Shown piece by piece: positions 4,134-57,055 of a stretch of 64,000 nucleotides of DNA. The position numbers and the translations under genes are program-made. The first letter of the stretch is position 1; the number at the start of each line of letters is the position of its first letter. The stretch comes from an uncultured Verrucomicrobiae bacterium. GTDB lineage: Bacteria > Verrucomicrobiota > Verrucomicrobiia > Limisphaerales > UBA1096. The stretch is taken from contig CALJHX010000023.1 in NCBI GenBank assembly GCA_937770485.1, forward strand, positions 25,772-89,771, written 5' to 3'. The notes under the pieces were generated by a model, which saw nothing but the letters and a program-made list of their open reading frames with translations, was not told the origin of the DNA and searched no databases.

Positions 4134-4136
4134 ACG

Positions 4137-5903
4137 ATGAATACCGCTGCATGGTTGGTTTTGTTACTCCCGCTCCTCTCGGCGGTACTCATCGGCTTGG
4201 GCGTGTTCCGCTCGCGCATTGCCAGCGCGGCGATCTCCGTCGGCGCGGTCGTCGGTTCATTTTTGCTGACGTTGCTGCTGATTGCAGCCGGCGGTGAACT
4301 GCATCCGAGCGTTATTTGGCTCGCGATCGAGGGCCTTCAAATCGACATCGGATTGCAAATCGACAATCTCAGCAAGTTGATGCTGTGTGTCGTTACCGGT
4401 GTCGGCGGACTGATCCATTTTTTCTCGCTGGGCTACATGAAGGAGGATCGGGATTTCTCTCGCTACTTTGCCTTCCTCAGCATCTTCATTTTCTCGATGC
4501 TCGGTATTGTGTTGGCCGACAACTTCGTGATGATGTTCATCTTCTGGGAATTGGTCGGTGTCTCGAGTTATTTGTTGATCGGATTTTGGTTCGAAAAACC
4601 CAGCGCGGCCGATGCCGCCAAAAAAGCCTTCCTCACCAACCGCATCGGCGATTTCGGTTTTCTGATCGGCATCCTGATGGTCTGGGCCGCGATGGGTTCT
4701 ATCAATTTCGACGCCATTGAGAGCAAACTCGCGACTGGAACTGCGGCCATCACCGGCTTGGCCGGGTTCCTGATTTTCTGCGGAGCTATGGGAAAGTCCG
4801 CCCAAGCCCCTCTGCACGTATGGCTGCCGGACGCGATGGAGGGCCCGACGCCGGTCAGCGCGCTCATCCACGCTGCGACGATGGTGGCTGCCGGTGTGTA
4901 CATGCTTTGCCGCCTGTTTTTCCTGATCGAAGGCACCTGGGCGATGGAGGCGATCGCGTGGATTGGCGGCCTGACCTCTCTGCTGGCCGCGCTGATGGCG
5001 GTGCAGCAGGACGACATCAAGCGCATCCTGGCCTACTCGACACTCTCACAGCTGGGCTACATGGTGATGGCGGTTGGGCTGGGTTCGCCCGACGCGGCGA
5101 TGTTTCACCTGACAACGCACGCCTCCTTCAAGGCGCTGTTGTTCCTCGGGGCTGGCTCGGTAATCGTGGCGCTTCATCACGAGCAGGACATCTGGAAGAT
5201 GGGCGGCCTGCGAGAGCGGATGCCGAAGACGTACTGGACGTTTTTGATCGGCACGATGGCGCTCTGTGGCGTCCCACTCTTCAGCGGTTTTTTCAGCAAA
5301 GAAGCTATCCTCGACGTCGCGCTGGAGAATAATATTCTGCTGTTTTTGGTCGCCGTGTTTGTTGCCTTGCTGACGACATTTTACATGACGCGACTGTTTG
5401 TTGTGGCGTTCATGGGCGAGCCGCGTTCGAGCCACGCTGAGCATGCCAAGGAGAGTCCCGCCGTGATGACCGTTCCACTGATGGTGCTCGCGGTGCCATC
5501 GGTAATCGCCGGCTACTTCAACGCGCACGCGCTGAATCCACTAGTGCTGGCCGCCTCGCTCGTTGTGTTGGTGTTCGGCACGCTCGTGGCCAACACCCTG
5601 TACAGCGGAGCCAAGGAAGATCCGCTCCCGGCAAGGTTAGGCCGCTTGGCCAAGGCGCTGCGCAACCGGTTTTGGTTTGATGAAGTTTACCAGTGGTTCA
5701 TCGACAAAGTGCAGGAGAACTTGGCCAAGCTGGCGGACGCCATCGACCGCTGGGTGATCGCCGGGTTGCTGGTGCGCGGCGCACACGGCACGACTGAGTT
5801 GGCCGGTCGGGTGTTGCGCCTGGCCCAGACCGGGAACCTACAAACATACGCTTTTTGGTTTGCGGCCGGCATGGCTGTGCTTTTGTTTTTTACGTTGAAT
5901 TGA
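4137..5903 (+). CDS. nuoL: NADH-quinone oxidoreductase subunit L
   Basis: A 588-aa antiporter-like subunit with ND5/NuoL motifs (FWELVGVSSYLLIGFW, KSAQAPLHVWLPDAMEGPTPVSALIHAATMV). Confidence 0.9.
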   Translation: MNTAAWLVLLLPLLSAVLIGLGVFRSRIASAAISVGAVVGSFLLTLLLIAAGGELHPSVIWLAIEGLQIDIGLQIDNLSKLMLCVVTGVGGLIHFFSLGYMKEDRDFSRYFAFLSIFIFSMLGIVLADNFVMMFIFWELVGVSSYLLIGFWFEKPSAADAAKKAFLTNRIGDFGFLIGILMVWAAMGSINFDAIESKLATGTAAITGLAGFLIFCGAMGKSAQAPLHVWLPDAMEGPTPVSALIHAATMVAAGVYMLCRLFFLIEGTWAMEAIAWIGGLTSLLAALMAVQQDDIKRILAYSTLSQLGYMVMAVGLGSPDAAMFHLTTHASFKALLFLGAGSVIVALHHEQDIWKMGGLRERMPKTYWTFLIGTMALCGVPLFSGFFSKEAILDVALENNILLFLVAVFVALLTTFYMTRLFVVAFMGEPRSSHAEHAKESPAVMTVPLMVLAVPSVIAGYFNAHALNPLVLAASLVVLVFGTLVANTLYSGAKEDPLPARLGRLAKALRNRFWFDEVYQWFIDKVQENLAKLADAIDRWVIAGLLVRGAHGTTELAGRVLRLAQTGNLQTYAFWFAAGMAVLLFFTLN

Positions 5904-42438: not shown

Positions 42439-42704
42439 GGTCGTTCGATGTTGATGGTTCGTCCCGGCAATGAGGGCGAGTGAATTTCGTGGATGGTTCC
42501 GTCTCTGCTTTCGACGACGAACACGCCGCCGATTCTCGCGTTAATTTCTGTCCTGTCGCCCGGCTTCACCACGGTTGGCCGGCGGCTTCGTTGGCCGCGC
42601 GGGGTGATGGCGTACACCTTGATTTCCGTGTCGGTTTTGTTGGCGATGAGCAGCGGGGCGGGTTGGCGGCCGCGGTTGGGGTTGGAATGCACGGAGGGCA
42701 CCAT
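42435..42704 (-). CDS. Small hypothetical beta-rich protein or domain (tentatively VHL-beta-domain-like)
   Basis: The ATG at 42704 gives 89 aa: ...LLIANKTDTEIKVYAITPRGQRSRRPTVVKPGDRTEINARIGGVFVVESRDG... Its stop overlaps the downstream sulfatase start (ATGA). The family assignment is only my pattern recognition. Confidence 0.3.
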   Translation of the reverse strand: MVPSVHSNPNRGRQPAPLLIANKTDTEIKVYAITPRGQRSRRPTVVKPGDRTEINARIGGVFVVESRDGTIHEIHSPSLPGRTINIERP

Positions 42705-43383
42705 CTGCAACGGGCGACGTGGATGGGTTTTTAACAAGCGCGAGGAAGAACGGTTTCTCCGCTTGGCCAAGCCGCCGCAGGTCTTCGATGGCCATGTTCG
42801 TATGCGCGCCGTCCACCAGTTGGTGGTCGTCAATCACCGGCGCGGCGGTGGCCGGGCCACGCAGATTGTTCTTTCGCCAGTCGTTGTCGGGCAGCTTGGC
42901 CTGCACCTCGCGGATACGCGCCTGCCAGCCCTTGGCATAACACCGTTGGAATTTAATGGGCCGGATTGGTTCGCTCCACGACTGCGGGTCGGGCGTCGGG
43001 TTATGATAAATCTTCCCGTGCCCCACCGCCGTGTAGCCGTGCCGGCGCAGCCACTGCGGTAGCGTCACCACATTGGGCTTGGCCTCGCGGAAATGAATCG
43101 GCAGCGTCCACACCCCCAGCGTGTCCGGCCGCTGCCCCGTCATCAGGCTCGCTCGCGAGGGATTGCAGACGGCCACCTGGCAGTGCGCTTGGTCAAACCG
43201 CACCCCGCGCTTGGCCAAGCGGTCGAGGTTCGGCGTGATCGCATGGCCGTCCCCATAGCAACCAATGGCCGGTCGCAAATCATCCACCGCGATGAAGAGA
43301 ATATTGGTCTTGGGCGCACTGGCCGCAGTAATGGTGCCCAACAACAGGGCGGCGGCACATTTTGCGGAACAAGGGAGACTCAT
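42541..43383 (-). pseudogene. Sulfatase remnant (N-terminal about 215 aa only)
   Basis: A signal peptide, the CxPxR signature VAVCNPSRASLMTGQRP and family-like sequence up to ...AEKPFFLALV. After that the frame runs into low-complexity P/R-rich sequence. A sulfatase of this type is normally about 450-550 aa, and only about 300 bp remain before the next gene. Confidence 0.55.
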
Positions 43384-43411
43384 CTTATTGCCGGATGCAA
43401 AATTCGCAGGA

Positions 43412-44851
43412 TTAAGGTTTCCATGGATCCTTCGTTTTGCTCAACCAAGGCTGGAGTTCTTGCTCGATGAGTTGTCTCACAAGCTTCGGTCGTTCGGCCG
43501 CGATGTTCTTCAACTGCCATGAGTCGGCCTGGTTGTCGTGCAGATAGCGCTGTTCCGTGCCGTCTTCCTGTTTCTCGATGCGAAGGGTGTAGCGGTGAGT
43601 GCGCACGCCGCGACTTCCTTGGTCCCGTGGCACGTAGCCTATCTTCAAGTACAGTTGCGATGTGGGGCGTTGGCCTTTCCCGGTGCGAAACAGCCGTGAG
43701 TAATCCGTACCCTCTACCTTCTCCGGGATGTCCCGCCCAAACCCCATGAGACTGAGCAGGGTGGGGTACACGTCCGGCACGGAAAAGAGAAGGTCATCCT
43801 TGCGCACCGGAATTTTTCCGGGCCAACGAATCAGGAACGGAATCCGCATGGACTCCTCGTAGTGGTTGTTCTTGGAAACCTGGTTGTGTGACCCGATGCA
43901 GTTGCCGTGATCGGAGGTGAAAACGACGATCGTGTTCCGCGCAAGGTTTGCGTCCCTCAATGCCTTCAGGATGCGCCCAAACTGATCATCGACGCCGGTC
44001 ATCATCGCGTAGTAATTCCGTGTGTGGGCACGGGCCAGTTGCGCGAACTTGTCCCTGCCCATGATGTTTACGTTTCCGCGCGTCACGATTTGCTCCATCG
44101 ATTTCCCCTCGTATGCCTTTAGGTACCGCTTGGGGAACGCTGTGTAGGGCATGTGCGGCGGATTCATCGATACCACGCAGGCAAAAGGCCGGCGGGCCGC
44201 CGCCGTTTCGCGGATGAACTCGATGGCCTTGTCCGCCTCGTGTTCCGGACCCCATTGGTTCACACGCAACGGCTTGTCGCGCGGCGTGTCGTTGGCCCAG
44301 TAGAGCGGGTTCATGTGGTGATCAAACGTGTTGTAGCCATACCAGAAATCAAAGCCATGCCGACGGGCCGGTGGCGTCCATTCGTTCCACGCAAAAGTGT
44401 CGCTGTTGTTTTCGCATTTCACGTACGGTTTGCGTGGTGACTCGAGGTGCCATTTTCCAATCCAGGCCTGCCGGTAGCCGCGGTCGTACAAGACATCGGA
44501 CCAGCAGAGCGCGTTTTTACGGAGTTCGTAACCCAGTTGGGCGCCGCGTGAGTTGCTGTTGCCGAGCACGCCGTTGTTGATCGGATACCGGCCGGTCATC
44601 AGCATGGCCCGATACGGACTGCAAACAGGGTAGTTGCTGACGGCTTGAGGCAACACCAGCCCCTCGGAGGAAAAACGGTCAAGATTGGGCGTCACCACCG
44701 GATCTTCACCAAGGAATCCCAGCGCTTGGCCGCGCCACTGGTCAGCGAGCACGAACAACAGGTTGGGCGGTGATGGCTTGGTCGGCGCCGAATGGGCCGG
44801 AATAATGAACCACAGACAAGCCAACAGGACGGCAATAAAACGGGTCTTCAT
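43412..44851 (-). CDS. Sulfatase (S1 family)
   Basis: A signal peptide and the signature YPVCSPYRAMLMTGRYP, over 479 aa. Confidence 0.88.
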   Translation of the reverse strand: MKTRFIAVLLACLWFIIPAHSAPTKPSPPNLLFVLADQWRGQALGFLGEDPVVTPNLDRFSSEGLVLPQAVSNYPVCSPYRAMLMTGRYPINNGVLGNSNSRGAQLGYELRKNALCWSDVLYDRGYRQAWIGKWHLESPRKPYVKCENNSDTFAWNEWTPPARRHGFDFWYGYNTFDHHMNPLYWANDTPRDKPLRVNQWGPEHEADKAIEFIRETAAARRPFACVVSMNPPHMPYTAFPKRYLKAYEGKSMEQIVTRGNVNIMGRDKFAQLARAHTRNYYAMMTGVDDQFGRILKALRDANLARNTIVVFTSDHGNCIGSHNQVSKNNHYEESMRIPFLIRWPGKIPVRKDDLLFSVPDVYPTLLSLMGFGRDIPEKVEGTDYSRLFRTGKGQRPTSQLYLKIGYVPRDQGSRGVRTHRYTLRIEKQEDGTEQRYLHDNQADSWQLKNIAAERPKLVRQLIEQELQPWLSKTKDPWKP

Positions 44852-44977
44852 TCTTTTGGAACAGAGTCAGTTGTAAACAGCTGCGACGGTTCCAATGCCG
44901 TGCCTTCCTGGCGTGATTTGGTGGCGCCTTTATTCACTGGGAGTGTGACATCGAGATTGTCGGTGAGCATTCTTACT

Positions 44978-46423
44978 TTAAGCCAAAATTTGTTTCACCA
45001 CCTTACCGTGGACGTCGGTGAGGCGGAAGTAGCGGCCCTGGTAGCGGTAGGTGAGCCGTTCGTGGTCGATGCCGAGTTGGTGCAGGATGGTGGCTTGCAG
45101 GTCGTGGACGTGCACGGGATTTTCAGTAACGTTGACGCTGTAGTCGTCGGTCTCACCGTAGGACATGCCGCCGCGCACGCCGCCGCCGGCCATCCAGTAA
45201 GTGAAACAGTTTGGGTGATGGTCGCGGCCGTAAACCTGCTTAGTCAGCTTGCCCTGGCAGTAGATCGTGCGGCCGAACTCGCCGCCCCAGACGACGAGTG
45301 TGTCGTCGAGCATGCCGCGCTGCTTGAGGTCGAGCAGCAGCGCGGCGGTGGGCCGGTCGGTGTCGCGGCACTGGGCGGGCACCTCTTTGGGGGCGTTGTT
45401 GTGGGCGTCCCAGCCGCGATGGTAAAGCTGGATGAAGCGCACGCCGCGCTCGGCCAGGCGGCGGGCGAGCAGGCAGTTGTAGGCGTATTTGCCCACCTTC
45501 GTGGCGTCGGGGCCGTATTGGTCGAGGATGTGCTGCGGTTCGCGCTGGACGTCGATCAGTTCCGGCACGCTCATCTGCATGCGGAACGCCAGCTCATACT
45601 GCGCTATGCGCGTGGCGATGGCGGGATCGTTAAACCGGCCGGCCTGGTCGCGGTTGAGTTTGCCGAGCGCATCGAGCATGCGGCGGCGCTGGGCGCGCGT
45701 GACGCCGGCGGGATTGTAAAGGTCGAGAATTGGATCGCCCTGGCCGCGGAATTTCACCCCCTGGAATCGCCCTGGCAAAAAGCCCGCGCCCCACAGCCGG
45801 TCGTAGAGAGGCTGACCGGCCTTGGCCCGTCCGTTGGAGGTCAGCGCCACGAACGCGGGCAGGTTGGCGTTCCCGCTGCCGAGCCCGTAGCTCACCCAAG
45901 CGCCCATGCTCGGCCGGCCGGGGAGCACCGAGCCGGTCTGGAACAGCGTTGCGGCCGGGTCGTGGTTGATGGCGTCGGTGTGCATGCTCTTGATCACGCA
46001 CACATCGTCGATGACTTGGGCCAGGTGGTGCAGCGGCTCGCTCAGCCAAGTGCCGGCCTGGCCGTGGCGGGTGAACTTGAGCGTACTCGGGGCACAGGGG
46101 AACGAGGCTTGGCCGGAGGTCATCGTGGTCTTGCGCTCGGCCGGGTAAATGGACTCGGGCACTTCCTCCCCGAAGCGCTTGGCCAAGTGCGGCTTGTAGT
46201 CGAAGAGATCCATCTGCGACGGGCCGCCGGACTGGAAAAGATAAATCACCCGCTTGGCCTTGGGCGCGAAGTGCGGCAGATCGGCCTGGCCACCGATGGC
46301 GTTGGGCTTGGCCGCCTGCGCGTTGAGCAGCGAGCCAAGCGCGATGCCGCCCAGTCCGAGCGTGCCTCGCCCAAGGAAGGCACGGCGAGTGTGTTGCGTG
46401 TGGAGTTCGGTCAGTGGGTTCAT
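44978..46423 (-). CDS. DUF1501 domain protein (sulfatase-fold, Tat signal)
   Basis: It has [21 protein letters not shown], and its length and sequence match the DUF1501 family. It closely parallels the paralogue at 52832..54205 (for example ...[29 protein letters not shown]). Confidence 0.88.
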   Translation of the reverse strand: [481 protein letters not shown]

Positions 46424-46820
46424 GTCAGTTTTGCATGATGCTAAAAACCTGAATTATAACCTGTTTTTTAAAGCTTTTTTGAAAATCTGAATTTTCAATC
46501 ACACTTTTTAAAGCCATCGAGGTTGCCTCTGTATTCATCCAATGAATCGTGCTCGATGTTGGTGCAGACCGAAGGCTTGCCCCTAACCTCTGAAAATGGA
46601 ATCCACCAAAATTCATTGCGCGGAATCAGTACCAAGTCTAAATAGCTACAATCGGCCTCTGAGTAAAGCTTAGAGGCCGCTCCGATTACCCCTTCTGGCT
46701 GACCTGCTCGTATGCTTTCGGTTCAGCCATCAACCCTTAGTTTTTAAGGTTGAAGGCATTTAGCGGCAACAGTTAAAACGGGTTGAAAACTCCGCTCAAC
46801 GGGGTGACAGTTCCCTCGCT

Positions 46821-48035
46821 ATGAAATCAATCCTACTAACAACTATAGCAGCCGTGGTTATGTTGCTATTCGGCGGGGTTAATGAGGTTAATGGGGATCC
46901 TTTGACGTACAAGGTTAAGGGAGAAACAGTTTCCGTTGTTAAATGTGATGAAAACGCCTCTGGAGAGGTGGTGATTCGCTCTTCCTATGCGGAGAAACCG
47001 GTCACCAGCATTGGGAAGAGTGCCTTCAGTGCCTGCAGTAGGCTGACGAGCGTAACGATCCCCGACAGCGTCACCAGCATTGGGAGATCGTGCCTTCCGA
47101 TACTGCAGTAAGCTGACGAGCGTGACGATCCGCGACAGCGTCACCAGCATTGAGGGGTGGACATTCGATTACTGCGGTAGCCTGACCAGCGTTAGATCCC
47201 CGAGAGCGTCACCAGCATTGGGAAGAAGGCCTTCGCTCACTGCAGTAGTCTGACGAGCGTGACGATTGGCAACAGCGTCACCAGCATTGGGAATTTGGCC
47301 TTCTATGACAGCGTTAGCCTGACGAGCGTGACGATTCCGGACAGCGTCACCAGCATTGGGAGCAGGGCCTTCGAATACTGTGGTCTGACGAGTGTGATTA
47401 TTGGCGACAGCGTCACCAGCATTGGATCGAATGTCTTCGCTTACTGCAGTAGTCTGATGAGCGTGACGATCCCAGACAGCATCTTAAGGGCTGGGTTCGT
47501 CAGGAGTGTTTTCAACCAGTCAAAAAAACCTGAAAAGCGTGACGATCTCCGGAAGTGTCACCAACATTCCGAAATATGCCTTTAATGGCTGCAGTAGCCT
47601 GACGAGCGTTAGAATCCCCGACAGCGTCACCAGCATTGCGAAATCTGCCTTCTCAAGCTGCAGAAGTCTGACGAGCGTTACTTTTGAAGGTGATGCGCCT
47701 TCACTTGAAGCTAATGTGTTCAGAAACGTATCCGGTAATGCCAAAATATTTATTAACCCGGGTGCAACCGGCTTTGGTGAAACCTTTGGAGGATTACCTG
47801 TTCTGATTCTTGAAAAGGCATTAAGTATTAATGCAGCTAACAAAACCGATTCTCCATTCACTATCAGCTTCGAAACCAAATCAGATTCAACCTACACAAT
47901 TGAAGCTCACGCATGACTTAAAGACAATGGGGCGAGATTGGCGAAGTCCAAGGCACCGGAAGCTCGGTTGAATTCACTGATTGGCGTAAAGCGCTTTTCC
48001 AGAAGCAGTACTATCGGGTGAAGTTGGCAGAGTAA
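46821..48035 (+). pseudogene. BspA-like leucine-rich-repeat (LRR_5-type) surface protein, broken by at least 4 frame changes
   Basis: A signal peptide is followed by repeated ...LTSVTIPDSVTSIG..AF..C.. units. The reading frame jumps at about 47082-47084 (extra G), about 47194 (missing base), the A7 run at 47521-47527 and about 47908-47925. The C-terminal module ...WGEIGEVQGTGSSVEFTDWRKALFQKQYYRVKLAE* ends at 48035. Confidence 0.7.
47001..47660 (+). repeat. About 10 tandem coding repeats with a nominal 69-bp period (LRR units)
   Basis: The anchor GTCACCAGC recurs at 47001, 47070, 47140, 47208, 47277, 47346 and 47412, with degenerate copies near 47555 and 47625. The spacings are 69, 70, 68, 69, 69 and 66 bp. 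Confidence 0.85.
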
Positions 48036-48108
48036 AAACTCAGCTTGATTAGAAAGTTGAAGGCAAATGAAACACCTCCAACAATTTTAGGTGGCGTACA
48101 TACATAAC

Positions 48109-49124
48109 ATGAAAATTTTATTTAGCGTTAGCGCTATAGTGCTTATAATTATAGGGTGTAATTATCCCAGATACAATTGACTCCGTAATCGTTCTATCAC
48201 CTCCAACTAGTCAGCCTAATCAAGTCGAAAAGACACCTATTCCCATACCATTAACGGAGATCGAGCTACCAACAGAGAACGAAAAATCAGCCTTAATAGA
48301 CAAAACAATAACCGTATTTGGAATCAAGGTTTTTGCATTGGAGGGGGTTACAGACCGAGATCTGAAACTAGTGGCGAATGTTCTAGCCCAGTGGATTGAT
48401 AACGATGAGGACGGGACACCAGATAATCCGGCCGTCCTCGCTGAGATTGTCAGACAGAAAAGCCGGATGATCCTTGGCGTCACTTTTGATCAAATCGGCC
48501 CGTGGCATGAGAATTCACAGGGGATGTTAAAGTATGTACATGCCCCTACCTATGGCTTGGATGTCACAACTATCAATCACAACTGGTATGGCCTGCCCCT
48601 TAGCGAGTATTCTCAGGATCATTACCGTACAGAAGGGCTTTTCCCGCCGGATGCAACAACAGAAGAAACCTTCCATCTCATAACGGACATTGGGTATGCA
48701 AACGTATATCCATCCACCTTCTGGCATGGTGAAGTAGGCGACAATCCCTCAGAGGCTCTTCGCTCTCATATCGCAAATCGTGGAGAAGGACAAAAGGATG
48801 CCTCTCTGTTAACGGTGGCGATGGACAACGCTCGCGGGGGGTATTTCAAACACATGCCAAAACAATATCCCGATAACGCGTGGTATACCCGGTCAGACGA
48901 CTGCGGAGTATAAATGTTTTGTCGGTGAATACATCCATTGGGGAATGATCACCCTTGTTGGCTATAACGAGACACGTGAAGAAGGTATTCAGGATCAGTG
49001 GCAGATAACAAACGCCCATTCTCTGCGTAATAGGGACCCTGCATTATATGGATTGCTCACGAACACTGAATATAACTTTCCTAAAACTGCCCCGGACGGA
49101 TCTTACGGTGATTTAAGCCAATGA
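48109..49124 (+). pseudogene. Lipoprotein of unknown function, broken by two frame changes
   Basis: The ATG at 48109 encodes MKILFSVSAIVLIIIGC (a lipobox) and then hits a stop. The body continues in another frame (ORF 48338..48913). The tail YKCFVGEYIHWGMITLVGYNE...DGSYGDLSQ* lies in a third frame and ends at 49124. Confidence 0.5.
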
Positions 49125-49208
49125 ATACTAAAGCAACCAGAACTCGCCGACCTCCTCCGCAAACACGGCGGCAAGACGGGTGAAGAATTGAAAGCTGAAG
49201 GGAAATGA
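49125..49208 (+). pseudogene. Orphan 3' fragment of an ankyrin-repeat gene
   Basis: It translates to ILKQPELADLLRKHGGKTGEELKAEGK*, a typical C-terminal tail of PVC ankyrin-repeat proteins. It has no upstream body. Confidence 0.4.
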
Positions 49209-49465
49209 AACAACATACCAATCACACAACAATCGCAGCCGTTGTGCTGGTGGGGTGTGGGCCGAGTGTGGATATTTGGACTGCTGCCGATAAAGGAAAC
49301 ATTGAAGCCGTCAAGCAGCACATCGCAGCTGGCACGGATTTGGATGCGAAGATGCAGGGTGGACATACTCCTTTGCTTTATGCGACTTTGAGTGGTCACA
49401 GGGAAATCGATGGACGACTTGAGGAATACGCCTTGGTTCAACTGGATGTTCTTCGAAGTTTCTGA
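49205..49465 (+). CDS. Ankyrin-repeat lipoprotein, probably truncated
   Basis: It has a lipobox (AAVVLVGCG) and one clear ANK repeat (DIWTAADKGNIEAVKQHIAAGTDLDAKMQGGHTPLLYATLSGH). It then diverges and stops after 86 aa. Confidence 0.45.
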   Translation: MKQHTNHTTIAAVVLVGCGPSVDIWTAADKGNIEAVKQHIAAGTDLDAKMQGGHTPLLYATLSGHREIDGRLEEYALVQLDVLRSF

Positions 49466-49574
49466 GTAATATGAAGAACTGGTCAGAAACTTTTGTTAAT
49501 CGCATCTATCCGGGCTCTCGAGTCTCGGTCAAAATGATCGACCCCCAGGTAGGAGACCGTATTGTTAGGTATCG

Positions 49575-52500
49575 ATGAATCGCCCGCTTCCCATCTTCGT
49601 CTGCTGCATCATGGCAAGCGCAACCTACGCAGGCCAGAAGTTCGACTTCGAAAAGTTCCGCGACCGCTTGCCCTGGATCTGGCAATCGCCCCGGCAGGTT
49701 GAGCCGCCCAAGGTAAAGGACTCGGTATGGCCGGCGGATGCGGTTGATCGCTTTGTGCTCCGGAAGTTGGAAGCTGAGAAGCTGCGACCGGCTGAACCAG
49801 CCAATGACCGGGTGTGGATACGGCGCGTATACTTCGCCATCACCGGTTTGCCGCCGAAGCCGGAGGATGTCCAAGCCTTCCTCAACGACACGTCCAAGAA
49901 TCGCAAACGCACGCTTGTACGCGCCCTGTTGGATTCCCCGCACTACGGGGAGCGCTGGGCACGTCATTGGATGGACCTCGTGCGCTATGCGGAGTCGCGC
50001 GGGCATGAAGGCGATGCCATTCTGCCCAATGCCTACCGGTATCGCGACTACCTAGTTCGCGCGTTCAATGCGGATCTGCCCTACGATGCCTTGGTCACCG
50101 AACATCTCGCAGGCGACCTGTTGGAAAACCCGCGACTGCATCCTGAAACGGGCGCCAACGAATCCATCCTCGCCACCGGCTGGCCCTTCTTTGGAGAGAG
50201 CTAGATCACGCCCGGTGGATCTCCGTAAGGACGAATGCGATCGCCTCGACAACAAAGTCGACGTGATGAGCAAGACCTTCCTCGGATTAACCGTAGCCTG
50301 CGCCCGCTGCCACGACCACAAGTTCGATGCCATACGCCAGCGCGACTACTATGCCATGGCGGGTTTCATCCTCAGTTCCAGTTACCGCCAGGCACGGTTT
50401 GAATCGATGGAACAGAACAAAGCGGTCGCGAAGAAGCTGGAAGGCTTGCGCCGGGACCACCTGCCGAAGATCGCGAAAGCCTTTGCCGCAGGCTGCGCGG
50501 CCCGTGGTCGATGCGCTGGACGACGATGTGCCCGTCGAGCCGATCTCCACACCATTGCCCCGTTGGACGAGACTGATCATGGCAGTGGATCCGGGTTCCC
50601 AAGGCGAAGCTTGGGCCAAGCTTTCCTTTGATCACGCCAAGTGGAAAACCATGAAACTGCCCGGTCATTTTGAAAACGCCGGGTTGCCCGGCCACGATGG
50701 CGTGGTGTGGTTTCGAAAAACCATCGAATTGTCTGCTGGACAGGCCAAGTCCAAGGCAGTCCTGAACCTCGGTCAAATCGATGACATGGACGTCGCCTGG
50801 GTCAATGGCTCGAGGGTAGGAGGCTACGAGAATCCCGGCCACCATTACACGGTACGGAAGTATCCCGTTCCCACGGGTCTATTGAAAGCGGGCAAGAACA
50901 CGATTGCCGTCCGTGTCATGGACCATGGCTGGCCCGGAGGCATCGCCGGCAAGCCGGAGCAGCTCGTCCTGCAGTTGGGGAAGGAAACCATTTCCCTCGC
51001 CAATGCCTGGCATTTTTCCCCGGGTGCGGACCTGAAGACACTCAATGAACAGGCCGCCCTTGTCAGGCCCGAGCTTGTGACGTCGCCCATTTATCCCGTG
51101 GAAGGGAAGCATCAAATGGTGGCCGATTATACCCAGGGACATACACCCTGGCTGGTAGACGGGCCGACCTTTGGGCAGATCTCCGGCTCTGCCGGGCCAG
51201 TTGATGCTGATCGCGGGCGACCAACCACTCGCGCTGTCCCGTAACGGCGGCGCGATCCGTGATCCCTTCTGGAACGGGCTCAAGAACATCGATAGTGAAA
51301 ACGATCCTGGAGGATTGCTGAATGGTTTGACGCGAGCGGGTAAAACCATTCGCACCCCGACCGTTACCCTGTCGTCGGGCCAAGTTCACTACCTGATCAA
51401 AGGAAAGGCGACGGTGTATGCCGCGGTCAGTCAAAACCTTTTTGCCGGCCCTCTACATGGAAGCCTGACCAGGAAGGTGGAAGCGAAAGGCGACGCACCG
51501 CAATGGATCGGACACAACCTAAAGCGCTATGCCGGTCAACGCGTACACTTCGAGTTTTCTCCGGTCGGCAATGAGCCTTTCGAGCTTCTCCGAGTCATCG
51601 ATGGCGGAACCCCCCAACACAAACCGGGAGAAAGGAAGGCGTTGTTACGCAAGGAATTGCACCAGGCGCTCGATGACCTTGCGGACGGCAAGCTGGAAGC
51701 ACGGCACGTACCCCATGTTGTCTGGTTGATCGAACATGGAAAAGTGAAGCTCCCAGACGAGTTGTCAAAGACCTGGAAAACAGCCCTCGAGGAGCCGAGA
51801 AAAGAAGCGCGATGGGATTCACAGCTAGCGGTCAGCTGGTGGGGAGGCAGCGGGGTAGATGAACACGTCCTCGACCGGGGCAGTCCTCAATCGCCAGGGG
51901 AACGCGTCGGTCGAAACCTGCCCGAACTTCTCGCCATGGCTCCATTGCCGAACCGAAGCCCCGGACGCCTGGAGCTTGCCCGGCAGCTTACGGCAAAGGG
52001 ACATCCGCTGACCTCTCGGGTCATGGTCAACCGGATCTGGCACCAGCTCTTCGGTCGCGGGATAGTACCCACACCGGACAACTTCGGCTGGCTGGGTCAG
52101 CGGCCGAGTCATCCGGACCTGCTCGATTACCTGGCCGTCGAGTTCACGGAGACCCATGCGTATTCGATCAAATCGCTCATTGAACGAATTGTGCTGACCC
52201 GAACCTTCGGGATGTCGAACACCGCGGCCGATCCGGTCTACGCGGATCAGGATCCAGACAATCAATGGCTACACCGCATGCCGGTGCGGCGGCTCGAAGC
52301 GGAAGCGATTCGCGACTCGGCGCTCGCCATTTCGGGCCGGCTTGACCGAACAATAGGAGGGAAATCGGTCCTTGTCCACCTGACCGAATTTGTCGTCGGG
52401 CGTGGCAGTCCCACGAAGAGCGGACCTCTGGATGGCGCAGGTCGACGATCCATCTATACCGCGCTCCGTCGTAATTTCATCCCTACATTTATGCTGACCT

Positions 52501-52835
52501 TCGATTTCCCTGCACCCTTCAGCACCGTGGGCAAACGGGATGTCACCAATGTCGCCGGTCAGTCCTTGACCTTGATGAATGATCGCTTTTTGTACGGGCA
52601 GAGCAGCGTCTGGGCGAGCCGGCTCATGAAGGAGCAGACGTCTGCGCCGGAACGCATCCAGCGGATGTACGCCGAGGCCTTTGCCCGTCCGCCCAGCGAC
52701 GTCGAATTGGCGGCATGCCTCGAGGCACTCACTGCGTTTATCGGATTATATGGGGGCGATCCCAACGGCCACGAGGCTTGGCGGGATCTCTGCCATTCGT
52801 TTTACAGCATGACTGATTTCATCTACCTGAAATGA
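49575..52835 (+). pseudogene. DUF1549/DUF1553 (PSD1-type) protein with an inserted jelly-roll sugar-binding-like segment, split into four ORFs
   Basis: ORFs 49575..50204, 50068..50631, 50327..51244 and 51171..52835 together read as one protein. The parts are DUF1549 (RRVYFAITGLPPKPEDVQAF, ...GLTVACARCHDHKFDAIRQRDYY), a GH2_N-like segment (WKTMKLPGHFENAGLPGHDGVVWFRKT...VAWVNGSRVGG...GKNTIAVRV) and DUF1553 (LTSRVMVNRIWHQLFGRGIVPTPDNFG). The frames step 0>1>2>0. Confidence 0.75.
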
Positions 52836-54205
52836 AGTATCCCTTCAGCACTCGTCGTGATTTTTTACAGAAGGCCTCGCTCGGCTTCGGCAGCTTGGCC
52901 CTGGCCGGCTTGTACGGGGCGCCGATAATTCCGCATTACCGCCCGCCCGCGAAGAACGTGATCTTCCTGTTCATGGAAGGCGGGGTTTCCCAAGTCGACT
53001 CCTTTGACTACAAGCCGATGCTGGCTAAGCATCACGGTGAGGATCCGCGAAAGGCCATCGGCAAGATCGAGGCCACCCAGTTCGAGAGCGTAGGAAAGGT
53101 GATGAAGTCACCCTGGGAGTTCAAACAACGCGGAAAATGCGGGGCCTGGATCAGCGAACTGTTCCCCCAGGTGGCCGAACTGGCCGACGAGCTGGCGATC
53201 ATTCGATCGATGACCGCCAATTTCCCCGAGCACACCAGTGCCTGTTACTACATGCACAGCGGATTGGGCTTGCAGGGCCGACCGAGCATGGGTGCGTGGG
53301 CGACCTACGGGTTGGGCAGCGAGAACAAAAACCTTCCCGGCTTCGTCGTGCTCAACGGCGGCCAGATTCCCTCCGGCGGCCTGGATAATTTTTCCAACGG
53401 CTTTCTGCCTGCGACCTACCGCGGCAACCTGTTGAACGTCATTGGCACCCCGCTCGCCAATGTGAAACCGAACGAGAAATCCGACCGGGCCCAGAAGATC
53501 AAGCGACGCCTGGTGCAGCAACTGAACCGGAGTACGGCCGGGGGCATCGACGCCTTGGAATCGGCGATTGCCAACCACGAGCTGGCGGCCAGGATGCAAC
53601 TGGCCATCCCCGAAGTCATGTCTCTGGACGGCGAAACCGAAGCCACCAAAAAACTTTATGGCTTCGATGCCAAATATAAGCACACGCAAACCTATGCGAG
53701 GGAGTGCCTGATCGCCCGGCGATTAATCGAGCGGGGCGTACGCTTCGTCGAGTTGACCATTCCCATGGTAAATGGATACCAGCGCTGGGATGCTCACAAC
53801 GACCTGGTGACGAATCACAGCACAAACGCACGCGCGGTGGACCAGCCGATCGCCGGCCTGATCCGCGATTTGAAGTCACGCGGCTTGCTGGATGAAACCT
53901 TGGTCGTCTGGACCGGGGAATTCGGACGTACCCCCTTCGCCCAAGGGGGCAAAGGTCGGGATCACAACGAATACGGATTCAGCCTCTGGATGGCCGGAGG
54001 CGGGATCAAGCCCGGCGTGACCTATGGTGCAACCGACGACTGGGGTTACAAGGCGGTGGATAACCCATTGCAGATACACGATCTCCACGCCACTATGCTT
54101 CACCTGCTCGGGATCGACCACGAGGAGTTGACCTACCGCTTCAGCGGCCGTGACATTCGACTGACCGATGTACACGGGAAGATCATCGAGGATATCCTGT
54201 TGTGA
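52832..54205 (+). CDS. DUF1501 domain protein (Tat signal), intact
   Basis: RRDFLQKASLGFGSLALAGL, 457 aa. The start overlaps the stop of the upstream pseudogene (ATGA). Confidence 0.9.
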   Translation: MKYPFSTRRDFLQKASLGFGSLALAGLYGAPIIPHYRPPAKNVIFLFMEGGVSQVDSFDYKPMLAKHHGEDPRKAIGKIEATQFESVGKVMKSPWEFKQRGKCGAWISELFPQVAELADELAIIRSMTANFPEHTSACYYMHSGLGLQGRPSMGAWATYGLGSENKNLPGFVVLNGGQIPSGGLDNFSNGFLPATYRGNLLNVIGTPLANVKPNEKSDRAQKIKRRLVQQLNRSTAGGIDALESAIANHELAARMQLAIPEVMSLDGETEATKKLYGFDAKYKHTQTYARECLIARRLIERGVRFVELTIPMVNGYQRWDAHNDLVTNHSTNARAVDQPIAGLIRDLKSRGLLDETLVVWTGEFGRTPFAQGGKGRDHNEYGFSLWMAGGGIKPGVTYGATDDWGYKAVDNPLQIHDLHATMLHLLGIDHEELTYRFSGRDIRLTDVHGKIIEDILL

Positions 54206-54645
54206 AGATGATCGGGGGCTCAAGTCTTAGGTTCCATTTCTTGTTGATTACGTACTTCGTAATTCCTTGCATGGGGTCTTTCTTCGGCGGTTCGTTTGGT
54301 TTGCTTTCATTAACGCTCCTAGCCTTGAGCGACTTTGCCAAATGGTCAAGATTTACATTGAGGTTCACGAACGCCGCCAGCGCATACATCCTCACATCCA
54401 GTGCTTCGCTGCGTGCCCGTGTCTTCTGCCACACCCGTGACTTCACTCCGTTTCGCACCCGAGCTACTGCCTTCTCAGCAGTCAATTTTTCAAAATACTC
54501 TTCGTCGTAGCCTTGCCCAATCGGGAAGTGACAGTAGCCAGCACCGCTGTCCTCGATCTTCAGGCACGAGTAGATTAACTCCTTGGCCGAGTCAACGCCA
54601 AGGCTGAACAGCGGTCTGTTAAGTGTGATTACATCATACTTTTTG
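54183..54645 (-). mobile_element. 3'-terminal remnant of a phage terminase large subunit (GpA family) gene
   Basis: The minus-strand frame is closed upstream by a TAA near 54646. It reads ...RPLFSLGVDSAKELIYSCLKIEDSGAGYCHFPIGQGYDEEYFEKLTAEKAVARVRNGVKSRVWQKTRARSEALDVRMYALAAF..., matching the C-terminal region of lambda-like GpA terminases. No N-terminal ATPase part is present. Confidence 0.6.
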
Positions 54646-54775
54646 AGGTTGTTTTAGGATTTAAAGGAATTTTATGGGAAACTATACGATAAAAGTAACC
54701 CCTTTTAAAATGATGGTTAAGTTGTTTTTTAAGACTGTTTTAAGGAGAATAAAATCAGTTCCGAATGATGCAAAT

Positions 54776-57055
54776 TCAGTTTTGTGTGATGGCCTCGTCG
54801 AGATTGAGGATGGTGTTGGCCACCAGCGCGTAGGCGGCCAGTTGGGCGGCGGGCAGCCTGGGGCTGCGCGGCTTCTCGCCAACGGATAAGAGCTTCTTTG
54901 CTGCATCTGGTTTTTTTCGGAAATCTTTCAAGTAAAAGAAAAAATCTTTCATTAACAAATCCAACTCCTCCTTGCGTGGTGCGCGGCTAGTCACGCGGCG
55001 AAACGCCTCCGCCACGCGTTGGCGCGGCCGCTGTCCCTTGGCTAGCATCATGCGCTCGGCGAGGAACCGTGCTGCCTCCACGAAGGTCTTGTTATTCATC
55101 ATCGTGAGCGACTGCAACGGTGTGGTGGTGAGGTCGTTGCGTACGATGCAAATTTCCCGCGCGGCGGCGTTGAAGGTCATCATCGTGGGGGGCGGTACCG
55201 TGCGACGCCAGTAGGTATATATGCTGCGCCGGTAAAGTTTGTCACCCTTGTCCTGCTTGTAGCTTGCGTTCGAAATGCTCTTCCAGATTCCCGGTGGCAT
55301 GTATGGCTTCACCGATGGCCCACCAGTTTTTCCACTTAGCAAGTCGCTTGTGAACAGCGCTGAGTCGCGAATCGCATACGGCGTGAGACGCTTGCGTGGG
55401 CCATGGGAGAGCAGTCGGTTTTCGGGGTCGCGCCGCTGCAGTTTGCGCGAAGCCGTCGAGTGCTGCCGGTAGGTGGCGCTGGTGACAATGAGCCGGTGCA
55501 TCGACTTCAGGTTCCAGTCGCGCCGCACGAACTCGGTAGCCAGCCAGTCGAGCAGCGCCGGGTTGCTAGGCAGTTCGCCCTGCACGCCGAAGTTTCCGCT
55601 TGTTTTTACGAGGCCAAGCCCAAAGTAACGCTGCCACAGGCGGTTCACTGTCACGCGCGCGGTGAGCGGATGCGCCGGATTGACCAGCCACCTTGCGAGG
55701 CCAAGGCGGTTGCGAGGCCATTGATCGTTCCACGAGCCGAGCACCGGTGGCGTGGCCGGATGCAGTTGCTCTGATTTGTCCGGTTGGTCATACAGGCCGC
55801 GCTCGAGTCGATACGTGTCGCGTGGCTTGGGCAACTCGTGCAGCACCATCACCGTGTTGGTTGCGCCCGGCTGCGGACGTGGCACGGAGGTTTGCACCAC
55901 CTTGATTTTCATCGGTGCGGGCACCACGAACTTGGCCTCCTCCGCCGACAAAACCGGCCAGCGCTTTGGCACCTCGATGAACGGCGGGCTGTTGCCATTG
56001 TTCGGCCCAAGGCCGGCCTCATCGATGTTGTTGAAGAAAGCAAAAAGCCGGTAGAAGTCCTTTTGTGTGACCGGGTCGAACTTGTGATCGTGGCAGCGCG
56101 AGCAGGTGAGCGTAAGCCCAAGAAACATCGTGCCCATCGTCTCTACGCGGTCGGCCACGTATTCAACGATCCACTCGTCCGGAATCGATCCGCCCTCCGA
56201 GTTGATGCGGTGGTTGCGGTTGAAGCCGGTGGCCACCTGCGTGAAAAAGTTTCTGTCTGGAATCAAGTCGCCCGCCATCTGCTCAGTGATGAACCGGTCG
56301 AACGGCATGTTATCGTTGAGTGCCCGGATCAGCCAATCGCGCCACACCCACATGTAGCGCAGCCGGTCGTTTTGGTAGCCGTCGGTGTCGGCGTAGCGCG
56401 ATGCCTCCATCCAGCCCAGCGCCATGTGTTCGCCGTAACGCGGCGAGTCGAGCAGGCGATCCACCGCCTTCGCGTAAGCCCCGGGTGAATGGTCTTCGAG
56501 GAAGGCGTCAAGTTCCGCGAGCGTGGGCGGAAGGCCGGTTAGGTCGAGAGTCGCGCGACGGAGCAGGGTGGCCTTGCCGGCTTCCGGCGACGGAGCGAGT
56601 CCTTCGCGCTCAAGCCGCGCCAGCACGAAGTGGTCGATGCCGTTGCGCGACCAGTCGGCGTCCCTCACCTTTGCCAAGCGCGGCCGCTTGGGCGGCACAA
56701 AGGCCCAGTGCCGGTCGTCGCTTGGCCAAGCGGCCCCGGCCCGGAGCCACTCGACCAGTTTGGCACGATCCGCATCGCGCAGCGGTCGGTTGGAATCCGA
56801 CGGCGGCATGCGTTCATCCGGATCGTTGATTGTGAGCCGGCGCAGTATTTCGCCGTCGGCAATCACGCCTGCCTCGAGCGCCGCTGCGCGGTCGTGCAGG
56901 CGCAGCTTCGCCTTGCGGGCATTGGCGTCGGGGCCGTGGCAATGGTAGCAGGCATCCGACAACACCGGTCTAATGTCGCGGGCAAAGTCTAACTGCGCCC
57001 CCGATGCCATGCTGCAAAGGAAAACTGTCGCCAAAAGGGGGATGATACGCACCAT
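54776..57055 (-). CDS. PSCyt1-DUF1549-DUF1553 (PSD1-type) protein, intact
   Basis: It has a signal peptide, the planctomycete cytochrome c motif CYHCHGPDANARKAKLRL, DUF1549 (RRATLDLTGLPPT, CSRCHDHKFDP) and DUF1553 (TVNRLWQRYFGLGLVKTSGNFG). It is 759 aa. Confidence 0.88.
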   Translation of the reverse strand: MVRIIPLLATVFLCSMASGAQLDFARDIRPVLSDACYHCHGPDANARKAKLRLHDRAAALEAGVIADGEILRRLTINDPDERMPPSDSNRPLRDADRAKLVEWLRAGAAWPSDDRHWAFVPPKRPRLAKVRDADWSRNGIDHFVLARLEREGLAPSPEAGKATLLRRATLDLTGLPPTLAELDAFLEDHSPGAYAKAVDRLLDSPRYGEHMALGWMEASRYADTDGYQNDRLRYMWVWRDWLIRALNDNMPFDRFITEQMAGDLIPDRNFFTQVATGFNRNHRINSEGGSIPDEWIVEYVADRVETMGTMFLGLTLTCSRCHDHKFDPVTQKDFYRLFAFFNNIDEAGLGPNNGNSPPFIEVPKRWPVLSAEEAKFVVPAPMKIKVVQTSVPRPQPGATNTVMVLHELPKPRDTYRLERGLYDQPDKSEQLHPATPPVLGSWNDQWPRNRLGLARWLVNPAHPLTARVTVNRLWQRYFGLGLVKTSGNFGVQGELPSNPALLDWLATEFVRRDWNLKSMHRLIVTSATYRQHSTASRKLQRRDPENRLLSHGPRKRLTPYAIRDSALFTSDLLSGKTGGPSVKPYMPPGIWKSISNASYKQDKGDKLYRRSIYTYWRRTVPPPTMMTFNAAAREICIVRNDLTTTPLQSLTMMNNKTFVEAARFLAERMMLAKGQRPRQRVAEAFRRVTSRAPRKEELDLLMKDFFFYLKDFRKKPDAAKKLLSVGEKPRSPRLPAAQLAAYALVANTILNLDEAITQN

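What the first reader, a model, noticed from the sequence alone, without database searches (positions are those of the whole stretch)
46421..54793. Imperfect 17-bp direct repeats mimic a gene 3' end and bracket an 8.3-kb insertion that seems to have split a PSD1/DUF1501 operon
Three similar 17-mers occur on the plus strand:
- L = TCAGTTTTGCATGATGC (46425-46441)
- R1 = TCAGTTCCGAATGATGC (54755-54771)
- R2 = TCAGTTTTGTGTGATGG (54776-54792)

L matches R1 at 14 of 17 positions and matches R2 at 14 of 17. R2 is the true 3' end of the intact PSCyt1-DUF1549-DUF1553 gene (minus strand ...GCC ATC ACA CAA AAC TGA).

Read on the minus strand, L is AGC ATC ATG CAA AAC TGA c ATG. That is a vestigial '...IMQN-stop' followed one nucleotide later by the start codon of the otherwise partner-less DUF1501 gene (44978..46423). 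The spacing is what is expected for a translationally coupled PSD1/DUF1501 pair; compare the ATGA junction at 52832.

The simplest reading is as follows. The PSD1 gene at 54776-57055 and the DUF1501 gene at 44978-46423, or an equivalent pair, were once adjacent. An element then integrated at the PSD1 3' end. That element carried AT-rich cargo, a second PSD1-type/DUF1501 pair and phage DNA. It duplicated or replaced the gene terminus, as tRNA- or gene-end-targeting islands do.

The window thus holds this two-gene module of unknown function in three states: an orphan DUF1501, a decayed DUF1549/1553 with an intact DUF1501, and an intact PSD1 without a partner.
Basis: inference. Interest (0 to 1): 0.7.

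Follow-up and report, generated by a model that had tools for sequence, protein, structure and literature searches.

The report
Island insertion splitting a PSD1–DUF1501 pair
An 8.3-kb patchwork of phage leftovers and borrowed chromosomal genes has inserted exactly between two normally adjacent genes of a marine Verrucomicrobium, duplicating the last 16 bases of the upstream gene; close relatives still have the uninterrupted junction, so this is a real but ordinary kind of genomic-island insertion.

Summary
L (46425-46441), R1 (54755-54771) and R2 (54776-54792) exist: 3 matches at up to 3 mismatches against 0.2 expected.

Four metagenome contigs from close relatives (94-97.5% nt identity) carry the predicted empty site. 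In it the DUF1501 start abuts the PSD1 stop (catg|TCAGTTTTGC[G/A]TGATG|Gcctcgtc). More distant relatives also keep the orthologous pair adjacent, two of them with the same TGA-N-ATG spacing.

The insert is window 46441-54775 (8,335 bp). It is bounded by a 16-bp, not 17-bp, duplication of the PSD1 terminus. Both flanking ORFs stay intact. R1 arrived with the insert.

The insert is a mosaic:
- AT-rich ends
- LRR, unknown and ankyrin lipoprotein genes
- a PSD1-type/DUF1501 pair whose relatives sit in ordinary chromosomal loci
- a 357-bp fragment of a lambda-type large terminase gene

The lipoprotein part and the terminase fragment lie in the same order as in Verrucomicrobia phage contigs.

I found no integrase, transposase, terminal inverted repeats or tRNA. 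The "decayed" PSD1-type gene is frameshifted only in this window; a sibling contig has it intact at 1,073 aa.

Most likely this is a decayed phage-derived element at an integration site. The mechanism is unproven. The kind is known, so interest is modest.

The parts
44978..46423 (-). DUF1501 gene (481 aa, RRxFL twin-arginine-type N-terminus), now separated from its PSD1 partner. It is intact in all strains.
   Evidence: Pfam DUF1501, E 4.8e-160. The ORF is full length with synonymous changes outnumbering non-synonymous ones against both occupied and empty-site strains.
46425..46440 (.). L: the left copy of the 16-bp duplicated target. It is a non-coding relic of the PSD1 terminus (minus strand CATCATGCAAAACTGA, reading ...IMQN*), followed by c then the DUF1501 ATG.
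   Evidence: It is identical to the live PSD1 terminus of empty-site contig L088 and of L002. The blastn overlap of the two flanks on L087 is exactly these 16 bp.
46441..54775 (.). The inserted island (8,335 bp). It is absent from L087, L088, L156 and L157, and present in L081-L084. L155 carries its right end.
46441..46820 (.). AT-rich left end of the island (GC about 0.43). Positions 46726-46776 resemble the promoter-side intergenic region of the accessory-gene ('moron') cassette in phage contigs L098/L099.
   Evidence: blastn gives 82.7% over 52 nt to L098 4062-4113. There is no significant similarity to the right end beyond the 16/17-mers.
46821..48035 (+). BspA-type leucine-rich-repeat lipoprotein gene. 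It is frameshifted in the window and intact (390 aa) in L081.
   Evidence: Pfam LRR_5, E 5e-82, on the L081 copy. Coordinates were mapped. The indels are listed.
48109..49124 (+). Lipoprotein gene of unknown function (337 aa in L082). It is frameshifted in the window. Its homologues sit in ordinary chromosomal contexts elsewhere.
   Evidence: No Pfam or PHROG hit.
49145..49465 (+). Ankyrin-repeat gene relics: the 3' end of one gene (...LLRKHGGKTGEELKAEGK*) and a truncated 86-aa second gene.
   Evidence: Translations are. They are similar to the ankyrin lipoprotein accessory genes next to the large terminase gene (TerL) in phage contigs L086 and L098.
49575..52835 (+). PSD1-type gene (DUF1549, a GH2_N/BetaGal_ABD2-like domain, and DUF1553). 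It is split into 4 ORFs in the window and is an intact 1,073-aa ORF in L081.
   Evidence: Pfam. The gene table is and the indels. Chromosomal orthologues occur in L093-L097 at 80-94% nt identity.
52832..54205 (+). Second DUF1501 gene (457 aa, intact). Its start overlaps the stop of the preceding gene (ATGA).
   Evidence: Pfam E 1.4e-140. There are 88-96% identical homologues in many Roseibacillus/Akkermansiaceae-labelled contigs.
54255..54611 (-). Relic of a lambda-type (GpA) large terminase gene, corresponding to about residues 504-622 of a 635-aa protein. Both break points lie inside the gene.
   Evidence: 89.7% nt identity to IMG/VR contig L085 5056-5405, inside its intact TerL ORF 3547-5454. 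Pfam GpA_nuclease and PHROG 15 also hit.
54612..54754 (.). AT-rich right end of the island, of unknown origin.
   Evidence: It has no match in any fetched locus, phage record or Rfam family.
54755..54771 (.). R1: a third, degenerate copy of the terminus motif, inside the island and 4 nt from R2. It is closer to L than to R2.
   Evidence: It is absent from the empty sites. In the divergent occupied allele L155 it reads TCAGTTCCGCATGATGC, which is 15/17 identical to L and includes base 17.
54776..54791 (.). R2: the right copy of the duplicated target and the functional last 16 nt (including the stop) of the PSD1 gene.
   Evidence: In L155 it is identical to the majority empty-site allele TCAGTTTTGCGTGATG.
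54776..57055 (-). PSCyt1-DUF1549-DUF1553 gene (759 aa, intact). It has the same length and C-terminus as its orthologues in empty-site strains.
   Evidence: Pfam. Close orthologues are mostly 759 aa and end ...LNLDEAITQN or ...AIMQN.

Best explanation
SHOWN. In the ancestor, the PSCyt1-DUF1549-DUF1553 gene and its DUF1501 partner formed a tight pair with a TGA-N-ATG junction. In the lineage of this window, 8,335 bp of foreign DNA became inserted 16 nt upstream of the end of the PSD1 stop codon. Those 16 nt are now present on both sides. As a result PSD1 keeps its full ORF (R2), and DUF1501 keeps its start codon plus its native 17 upstream bases (L). The two genes are now 8.3 kb apart, with opposite-strand genes between them.

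INFERRED mechanism. The insert is what remains of a phage-derived integrative element, or of serial integrations at one attachment site. It would have entered by site-specific recombination between an element-borne copy of the motif and the PSD1 terminus. That would explain four things: the insertion is exact, it damages no ORF, it is bounded by direct repeats, and the element carries its own extra motif copy (R1) at one end.

Later deletions and recombination would have removed the recombinase and nearly all phage genes. What is left is a terminase fragment, accessory ('moron'-type) lipoprotein genes, and a PSD1-type/DUF1501 pair captured from a related chromosome.

The element is now immobile and is inherited vertically, or by homologous recombination of its flanks, within a narrow clade (at least 97.7% nt identity).
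For: **Insertion and ancestral state**
- Empty sites occur in L087, L088, L156 and L157.
- The orthologous pairs are adjacent in L001-L005.
- The 16-bp overlap of the two flanks is seen on L087.
- The same junctions are found in four sibling contigs and in one more divergent occupied allele, L155.

**Near-perfect duplication at origin**
- R2 in L155 equals the majority empty-site allele.
- L differs from that allele by one transition, and that transition is itself a natural allele, seen in L088.

**Phage ancestry**
- The 357-bp large-terminase (TerL) fragment is 89.7% identical to phage contig L085.
- In phage contigs L098/L099/L086, TerL is followed by an opposite-strand ankyrin-lipoprotein cassette and a promoter region.
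- The island's 46726-46776, its ankyrin relics and its TerL relic match these and lie in the same order.

**Element-borne motif copy**
- R1 is absent from empty sites.
- R1 shares base 17 with L.

**Foreign composition:**

**Both flanking ORFs intact:**
Against: - There is no integrase, excisionase or transposase in the island, and no gap is long enough to hide one.
- None lies within about 10 kb on either side.
- No related phage contig carried the 16-mer at up to 2 mismatches, and neither island end was found in IMG/VR.
- Both ends of the terminase relic are internal gene break points, and the relic is 144 bp from R1. The phage material therefore does not itself define the att junctions.
- Most of the cargo (the unknown lipoprotein gene and the PSD1-type/DUF1501 pair) has relatives in ordinary chromosomal loci.
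- Simple attP x attB recombination predicts two motif copies, not three.
Confidence: 0.5

Rival explanations
1. The island was imported by recombination from a more divergent donor strain. One end of the incoming DNA was anchored by ordinary homology in or beyond PSD1. The other end was joined illegitimately, or through the short shared motif, inside the last 16 nt of the recipient's PSD1. On this view the 'duplication' is the recipient's leftover terminus (L) plus the donor's terminus (R2).
For: - Divergence from the empty-site strains steps up at the junction. It is 0.6-1.8% per 500 bp just left of L, against 4-10% across the 9 kb to the right.
- The proportion of synonymous differences (pS) is 0.035-0.054 in DUF1501 and 0.15 in the 3' part of PSD1.
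- L carries the L088-type allele (ATG) while R2 carries ACG/ACA.
- There are no mobility genes and no terminal repeats.
- The cargo is a patchwork of chromosomal genes from related bacteria.
Against: - This only moves the origin of the island into the donor, where PSD1 would already have been followed by R1 and the island.
- Divergence also varies regionally elsewhere (4-22% left of 41000). The step could instead reflect a later recombination tract that ended at the heterology.
- It does not explain R1 or its resemblance to L.
Confidence: 0.25
2. Insertion was by a transposase-like or casposase-like enzyme supplied in trans. The enzyme would make a 16-nt staggered cut, so L and R2 would be a true target-site duplication of a non-autonomous element.
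For: - The duplication has sharp edges and was perfect or nearly so at origin.
- The element encodes no recombinase of its own.
- From my own knowledge: casposons produce duplications of about 14-15 bp at gene 3' ends, and some insertion sequences make long duplications.
Against: - There are no terminal inverted repeats; local alignment of the two ends scores within the shuffle null.
- No Cas1 or transposase is present.
- No second copy of either end exists in the window, in about 160 fetched loci, or in IMG/VR.
- A duplication of 16 bp is outside the usual range for transposases.
Confidence: 0.15
3. The island is ancestral, and the 'empty' sites arose by precise deletion between L and R2.
For: Recombination between 16-bp direct repeats would regenerate exactly the sequence seen in the empty sites (inference).
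Against: - Every more distant relative examined (L001-L005) also lacks the island and keeps the two genes adjacent.
- Occupied contigs form a narrow clade of at least 97.7% identity.
- The island has foreign composition and contains a phage fragment.
Confidence: 0.03
4. The similarity is due to chance, or the 17-mer is the generic terminus of all PSD1 paralogues and has no link to an insertion.
For: The orthologues of this particular PSD1 gene do share a conserved ...AI(T/M)QN* terminus.
Against: - Three matches were found against 0.2 expected.
- The PSD1-type paralogue in the same window ends differently.
- The empty sites show that the repeats coincide exactly with the insertion boundaries.
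Confidence: 0.01

Closest known systems
Prophage remnants and genomic islands integrated by tyrosine recombinases at the 3' end of a gene (own-knowledge examples: phage 21 and e14 at icd; many tRNA-gene islands)
   Same: - The insertion is exact and lies at the last bases of a gene, and the ORF is preserved.
- Direct repeats of the target flank the insert.
- The composition is foreign and the content is mosaic, with decayed phage genes.
- Close relatives have an empty site with a single copy of the repeat.
   Different: - No integrase or excisionase gene remains.
- The target is a PSD1 (DUF1553) gene terminus rather than a tRNA or housekeeping gene.
- There are three motif copies, with R1 only 4 nt from R2.
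- The surviving phage piece is a 357-bp terminase fragment that is not adjacent to either junction.
PSCyt/PSD1-DUF1501 two-gene modules of Planctomycetes and Verrucomicrobia (Kamneva et al. 2012, PMC3542564; He et al. 2017, PMC5615132)
   Same: - Both flanking genes and the pair inside the island have the described architectures: PSCyt1/PSCyt2/PSD1 next to a DUF1501 protein with a twin-arginine-type signal.
- One has an inserted carbohydrate-binding-like domain.
- Sulfatase genes are neighbours.
   Different: Here one module has been physically split by an insertion while both ORFs remain intact. A second module is carried as island cargo. The papers describe conserved adjacency, not disruption of it.
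Phage accessory ('moron') cassettes in lambda-like phages
   Same: In phage contigs L086 and L098/L099, opposite-strand lipoprotein genes (ankyrin) with their own promoter region are inserted between the large terminase gene and the head-tail/portal genes. The island keeps the same order: promoter region, lipoprotein genes, terminase 3' end.
   Different: In the island the cassette holds different genes (LRR, an unknown gene, ankyrin relics). It is interrupted by a chromosomal PSD1-type/DUF1501 pair. The rest of the phage is gone.
Casposons (self-synthesising transposons that use Cas1)
   Same: They insert at the 3' end of a gene and produce a target duplication of similar length, about 14-16 bp (own knowledge).
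   Different: There is no Cas1, no polymerase B and no terminal inverted repeats. No copies were found elsewhere.

Membership tests
Integrase-mediated genomic island or prophage at a gene 3' end | The insert is flanked by direct repeats that match the chromosomal target (attL/attR). | tested here: met
   The 16-bp repeat lies at 46425-46440 and 54776-54791, and equals the last 16 nt of PSD1.
Integrase-mediated genomic island or prophage at a gene 3' end | Related strains have an unoccupied site with a single copy of the repeat. | tested here: met
   L087, L088, L156 and L157 have such a site.
Integrase-mediated genomic island or prophage at a gene 3' end | A tyrosine or serine recombinase gene lies within the element, usually next to one att site. 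| tested here: not met
   - No such ORF or Pfam/PHROG hit was found anywhere in 46441-54775 or in the intact sibling copies.
- None lies within about 10 kb of the flanks.
Integrase-mediated genomic island or prophage at a gene 3' end | The element contains phage or mobile-element genes. | tested here: inconclusive
   Only a 357-bp large-terminase relic and an accessory-gene cassette in the same order as in phage contigs are present.
Integrase-mediated genomic island or prophage at a gene 3' end | Excision to a circular form, or an attP in a free element. | not testable with these tools
   - This needs reads or PCR.
- The predicted attP-type joints were not found in IMG/VR.
DDE transposon or insertion sequence | A transposase gene and terminal inverted repeats. 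| tested here: not met
   - There is no transposase.
- The ends show no inverted or direct similarity above the shuffle null.
Casposon | Cas1 integrase, family B polymerase and terminal inverted repeats. | tested here: not met
   None of these is present. Only the length of the duplication and the gene-end target resemble casposons.
PSCyt/PSD1-DUF1501 module | A PSCyt1/PSCyt2/PSD1 protein is encoded next to a DUF1501 protein. | tested here: met
   - The domains are shown.
- The two genes are adjacent in empty-site strains and in more distant relatives.
- In the window itself, adjacency is lost for the outer pair and kept for the inner pair (ATGA overlap at 52832).
PSCyt/PSD1-DUF1501 module | A twin-arginine-type signal on the DUF1501 protein. 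| tested here: met
   - The N-terminus reads ...[19 protein letters not shown]... in the translation.
- The motif was read directly from the sequence. No signal-peptide predictor was run.

The most novel reading that the evidence does not exclude
The insert is a non-autonomous element mobilised in trans by a recombinase that is still unidentified. That enzyme would specifically recognise the PSD1 stop-codon region of this widespread gene family. It would duplicate 16 nt so that both ORFs, and the native upstream context of the DUF1501 start codon, survive. R1 and the 21-bp spacing of R1 and R2 would then be part of its recognition architecture. PSD1/DUF1501 junctions would be a dedicated landing pad for gene flow in marine Verrucomicrobia.
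Probability: 0.1. Interest if true: 0.55.

Novelty: new member of a known kind. Interest (0 to 1): 0.3.

Why it matters
The finding gives a clean, polymorphic natural example of a conserved two-gene module of unknown function being pulled apart without damage to either ORF.

Strains with and without the insert differ by only a few percent. They could therefore be compared to ask whether DUF1501 expression depends on co-transcription or translational coupling with its PSD1 partner.

The finding also shows that these modules move as cargo. And it shows that phages of marine Verrucomicrobia carry lipoprotein accessory genes that can outlive the prophage.

It does not reveal a new class of element or a new mechanism.

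Tried and rejected
1. **Chance or generic terminus.** Rejected by the shuffle statistics, the paralogue terminus and the empty sites.
2. **Integrase or transposase.** Pfam and PHROG scans of every island ORF and of the intact sibling versions found none. The gene tables of about 10 kb of flank on each side also show none.
3. **tRNA, tmRNA or Rfam family at the junctions.** None found.
4. **Terminal inverted or extended direct repeats.** Only the 16/17-mers are shared. A T-rich 24-mer pair (46457 and 54718) and the best local alignments are within the shuffle null.
5. **An attP in related phages.**
   - I fetched 57 viral loci around large-terminase (TerL) relatives and extended the best contig (L098/L154) through its tail genes. 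No integrase and no 16-mer at up to 2 mismatches were found.
   - Exact searches of IMG/VR for the R1+core joint and for both island ends found nothing.
   - GenBank phages gave no useful match.
6. **Contig L097 as a circular copy of the pair.** Rejected. Its end matches are paralogous ankyrin gene boundaries, and the contig has no end overlap.
7. **The island cargo as a conserved unit elsewhere.** Rejected. The pair, the unknown lipoprotein and the DUF1501 copy each have different neighbours in other genomes.
8. **Promoter and terminator scans at both junctions.** Uninformative.
9. **Exact-protein look-up of the window's DUF1501.** It found nothing, because the window copy carries one private substitution.

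Full report
**Observation**

The three 17-mers are present exactly as described.
- With L as the query and up to three mismatches, the 64-kb window contains only L, R1 and R2. The expectation is 0.20, and no shuffle out of 100 reaches three matches.
- With R2 as the query, only L and R2 are found.
- The gene calls hold. 44978-46423(-) is a DUF1501 protein. 54776-57055(-) is PSCyt1+DUF1549+DUF1553. 52832-54205(+) is a second DUF1501. 49575-52835(+) holds DUF1549 and DUF1553 pieces in several frames. 54183-54485(-) matches the end of the GpA terminase nuclease domain.
- GC drops to 0.40-0.49 over 46.4-49.4 kb and again at 54.4-55.0 kb.

**Ancestral state in distant relatives**

A scan of one genome per species with the DUF1501 protein returned relatives at 72-85% aa identity, L001-L005.
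- In every one, the gene immediately upstream is the orthologue of the window's PSD1 gene (75-81% aa identity). These orthologues end ...LNLDEAITQN*, or ...AIMQN* in L002.
- In L003 and L004 the junction is TGA-N-ATG, exactly the geometry seen at L.
- L002's last 16 nt are identical to L.

**Same-lineage contigs**

An exact-protein look-up of the PSD1 gene found four further contigs that are 99.1-99.9% identical to the window (L081-L084). All carry the same insert and identical L, R1 and R2.

**Empty sites**

I searched the metagenome collection for the predicted uninterrupted joint, GGGTTCATGTCAGTTTTGNNTGATGNCCTCGTC. It exists in two contigs, L087 (from a 140-kb contig) and L088.
- Their flanks match window 42737-46440 at 97.4-97.5% and window 54776 onward at 94.4-94.6%.
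- The two alignments overlap on the contig by exactly 16 bp.
- Two more empty sites came from look-ups of close PSD1 orthologues. L156 is a 159-kb contig syntenic for about 10 kb on both sides, and L157 is the other.
- The insert is therefore window 46441-54775 (8,335 bp), and the duplicated target is TCAGTTTTGYRTGATG.
- L155 is a more divergent occupied allele (97.7% identity on the right flank). It has R2 = TCAGTTTTGCGTGATG, identical to the majority empty-site allele, and R1 = TCAGTTCCGCATGATGC.
- L differs from that allele by one transition, which is also the natural allele of L088. The duplication was therefore perfect, or off by one base, when it formed.
- R1 is absent from every empty site, so it came with the insert. 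In its L155 form it matches L at 15 of 17 positions, including base 17, which is island DNA in L.

**Consequences for the two genes**

PSD1 remains 759 aa with the orthologous C-terminus. DUF1501 is full length in all strains, with synonymous changes outnumbering non-synonymous ones. The pair is split but neither member is decaying.

**Content of the insert**

Sibling contig L081 has intact genes:
- a 390-aa BspA-type LRR lipoprotein;
- a lipoprotein of unknown function (337 aa in L082);
- a 1,073-aa DUF1549/GH2_N-like/DUF1553 protein;
- the 457-aa DUF1501.

The window differs from its siblings by about 15 single-base indels, ten of them non-homopolymer insertions, plus 1-2% substitutions. All are confined to 47091-51177. 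The 'decayed' state is therefore specific to this sequence and may be real decay or assembly error.

The inner pair has orthologues at 80-94% nt identity in ordinary chromosomal neighbourhoods of Roseibacillus/Akkermansiaceae-labelled genomes. The homology ends at or near the gene ends. The unknown lipoprotein likewise sits in unrelated chromosomal contexts elsewhere.

Only 54255-54611 is phage-like. It is 89.7% identical to the inside of an intact 635-aa large-terminase gene (TerL) in IMG/VR contig L085.

In the related phage contigs L098/L099 and L086, TerL is followed by:
- an opposite-strand ankyrin lipoprotein cassette, with an HTH_17 gene in L098/L099;
- in L098/L099, a promoter-side intergenic region and then head-tail-joining, lambda-portal and capsid genes.

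The island's 46726-46776, its ankyrin relics and its TerL relic match these features and lie in the same order. The backbone is therefore a fragment of such a phage, with chromosomal genes recombined into it.

**What is missing**
- There is no integrase, transposase or Cas1.
- There is no tRNA or Rfam family.
- There are no terminal inverted repeats or extended direct repeats.
- No other copy of either end exists in the window, in the fetched loci or in IMG/VR.
- No related phage locus contains the 16-mer.

**Mechanism**

The event itself, an insertion with a 16-bp duplication that splits a formerly adjacent pair, is established; I put it at about 0.95. How it happened is inferred.

I favour site-specific integration of a phage-derived element, followed by decay (about 0.5). 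The reasons are that the joint is exact, it spares both ORFs, it sits at a conserved gene terminus, the element carries its own motif copy, and the backbone is phage.

The main rival (0.25) is import from a divergent donor, with one homologous and one illegitimate or short-homology joint.
- Supporting it, divergence from empty-site strains jumps from 0.6-1.8% just left of L to 4-10% on the right.
- Also supporting it, the proportion of synonymous differences (pS) is 0.035-0.054 in DUF1501 against 0.15 in PSD1.
- Against it, this leaves the origin of the island in the donor unexplained, and divergence also varies regionally elsewhere.

A trans-mobilised transposon-like insertion (0.15) lacks any supporting element features.

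The arrangement of three motif copies (R1, then 4 nt, then R2) is not explained by a single attP x attB exchange. It may record a tandem or serial integration, or a duplicated core in the element.

**Comparison with what is known**

The PSCyt/PSD1-DUF1501 module and its conserved adjacency have been described, with function unknown (PMC3542564, PMC5615132). Islands and prophage remnants flanked by direct repeats at gene 3' ends are a well-known kind. This is a new, recombinase-less and decayed member at a new target.

**Verdict**

The novelty is low and the interest modest (0.3).

Noticed in passing
window 42737-42745: The window lacks 785 bp that are present in L087, L088 and L156, where the segment is flanked by a 9-bp direct repeat (AGCGCGAGG). 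The deletion truncates a sulfatase gene: 280 aa here (42541-43383, minus strand) against about 580 aa in the relatives.
   Followed up: partly
window 47091-51177: About 15 single-base indels, mostly non-homopolymer insertions in the window, and raised substitution density relative to sibling contigs. There are none in the flanks. Either cargo genes are decaying in this strain or this stretch has assembly errors.
   Followed up: partly
window 50541-51206: Domain shuffling in the PSD1-type gene.
- The GH2_N/BetaGal_ABD2-like segment 50541-51069 is missing from the L097 orthologue (907 aa).
- An 84% identical segment sits in a different gene of L096 (12156-12664).
- Segments 50552-51073 and 51092-51206 are in the opposite order in L093-L095.
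   Followed up: no
L086 3861-4646; L098 2767-4018: Phage contigs of marine Verrucomicrobia carry an opposite-strand ankyrin-repeat lipoprotein gene just downstream of the large terminase gene. In L098/L099 an HTH_17/excisionase-like gene accompanies it, and the cassette lies between the terminase gene and the head-tail-joining/portal genes.
   Followed up: partly
window 48047-48074 and 49185-49212; L097 4609-4710 and 7257-7347: There is a recurrent gene-boundary motif, GAAGGsAAATGAAACA. It encodes ...ELKAEGK*, with the stop overlapping the next gene's ATG, and is followed by a shared lipoprotein signal (..TIAAVVLVGCG). It may serve as a recombination point between lipoprotein gene cassettes.
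   Followed up: no
L158 (TARA scaffold), last base: The contig ends exactly at the PSD1 stop codon. This is the break expected if occupied and empty variants co-occur in that sample.
   Followed up: no
L089-L092 10001-11374: In Roseibacillus-labelled MAGs the orthologue of the island's DUF1501 (89% nt identity) is itself an orphan. Homology to the window starts 6 nt before the ATG, and no PSD1-type gene lies upstream.
   Followed up: no
L001, L002, L005 (about 140-200 nt upstream of the DUF1501 start): In these more distant relatives the PSD1-DUF1501 junction is not tight. It holds a 140-200-nt spacer, and in L001 and L002 the spacer visibly contains inverted repeats. The junction therefore tolerates small insertions in other lineages too.
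   Followed up: no
window 46425-46616 (minus strand): A 63-aa ORF runs from the AT-rich island end into L and stops at the relic TGA, 1 nt before the DUF1501 ATG. This recreates the original coupling geometry. It has no family hit and is probably fortuitous.
   Followed up: no
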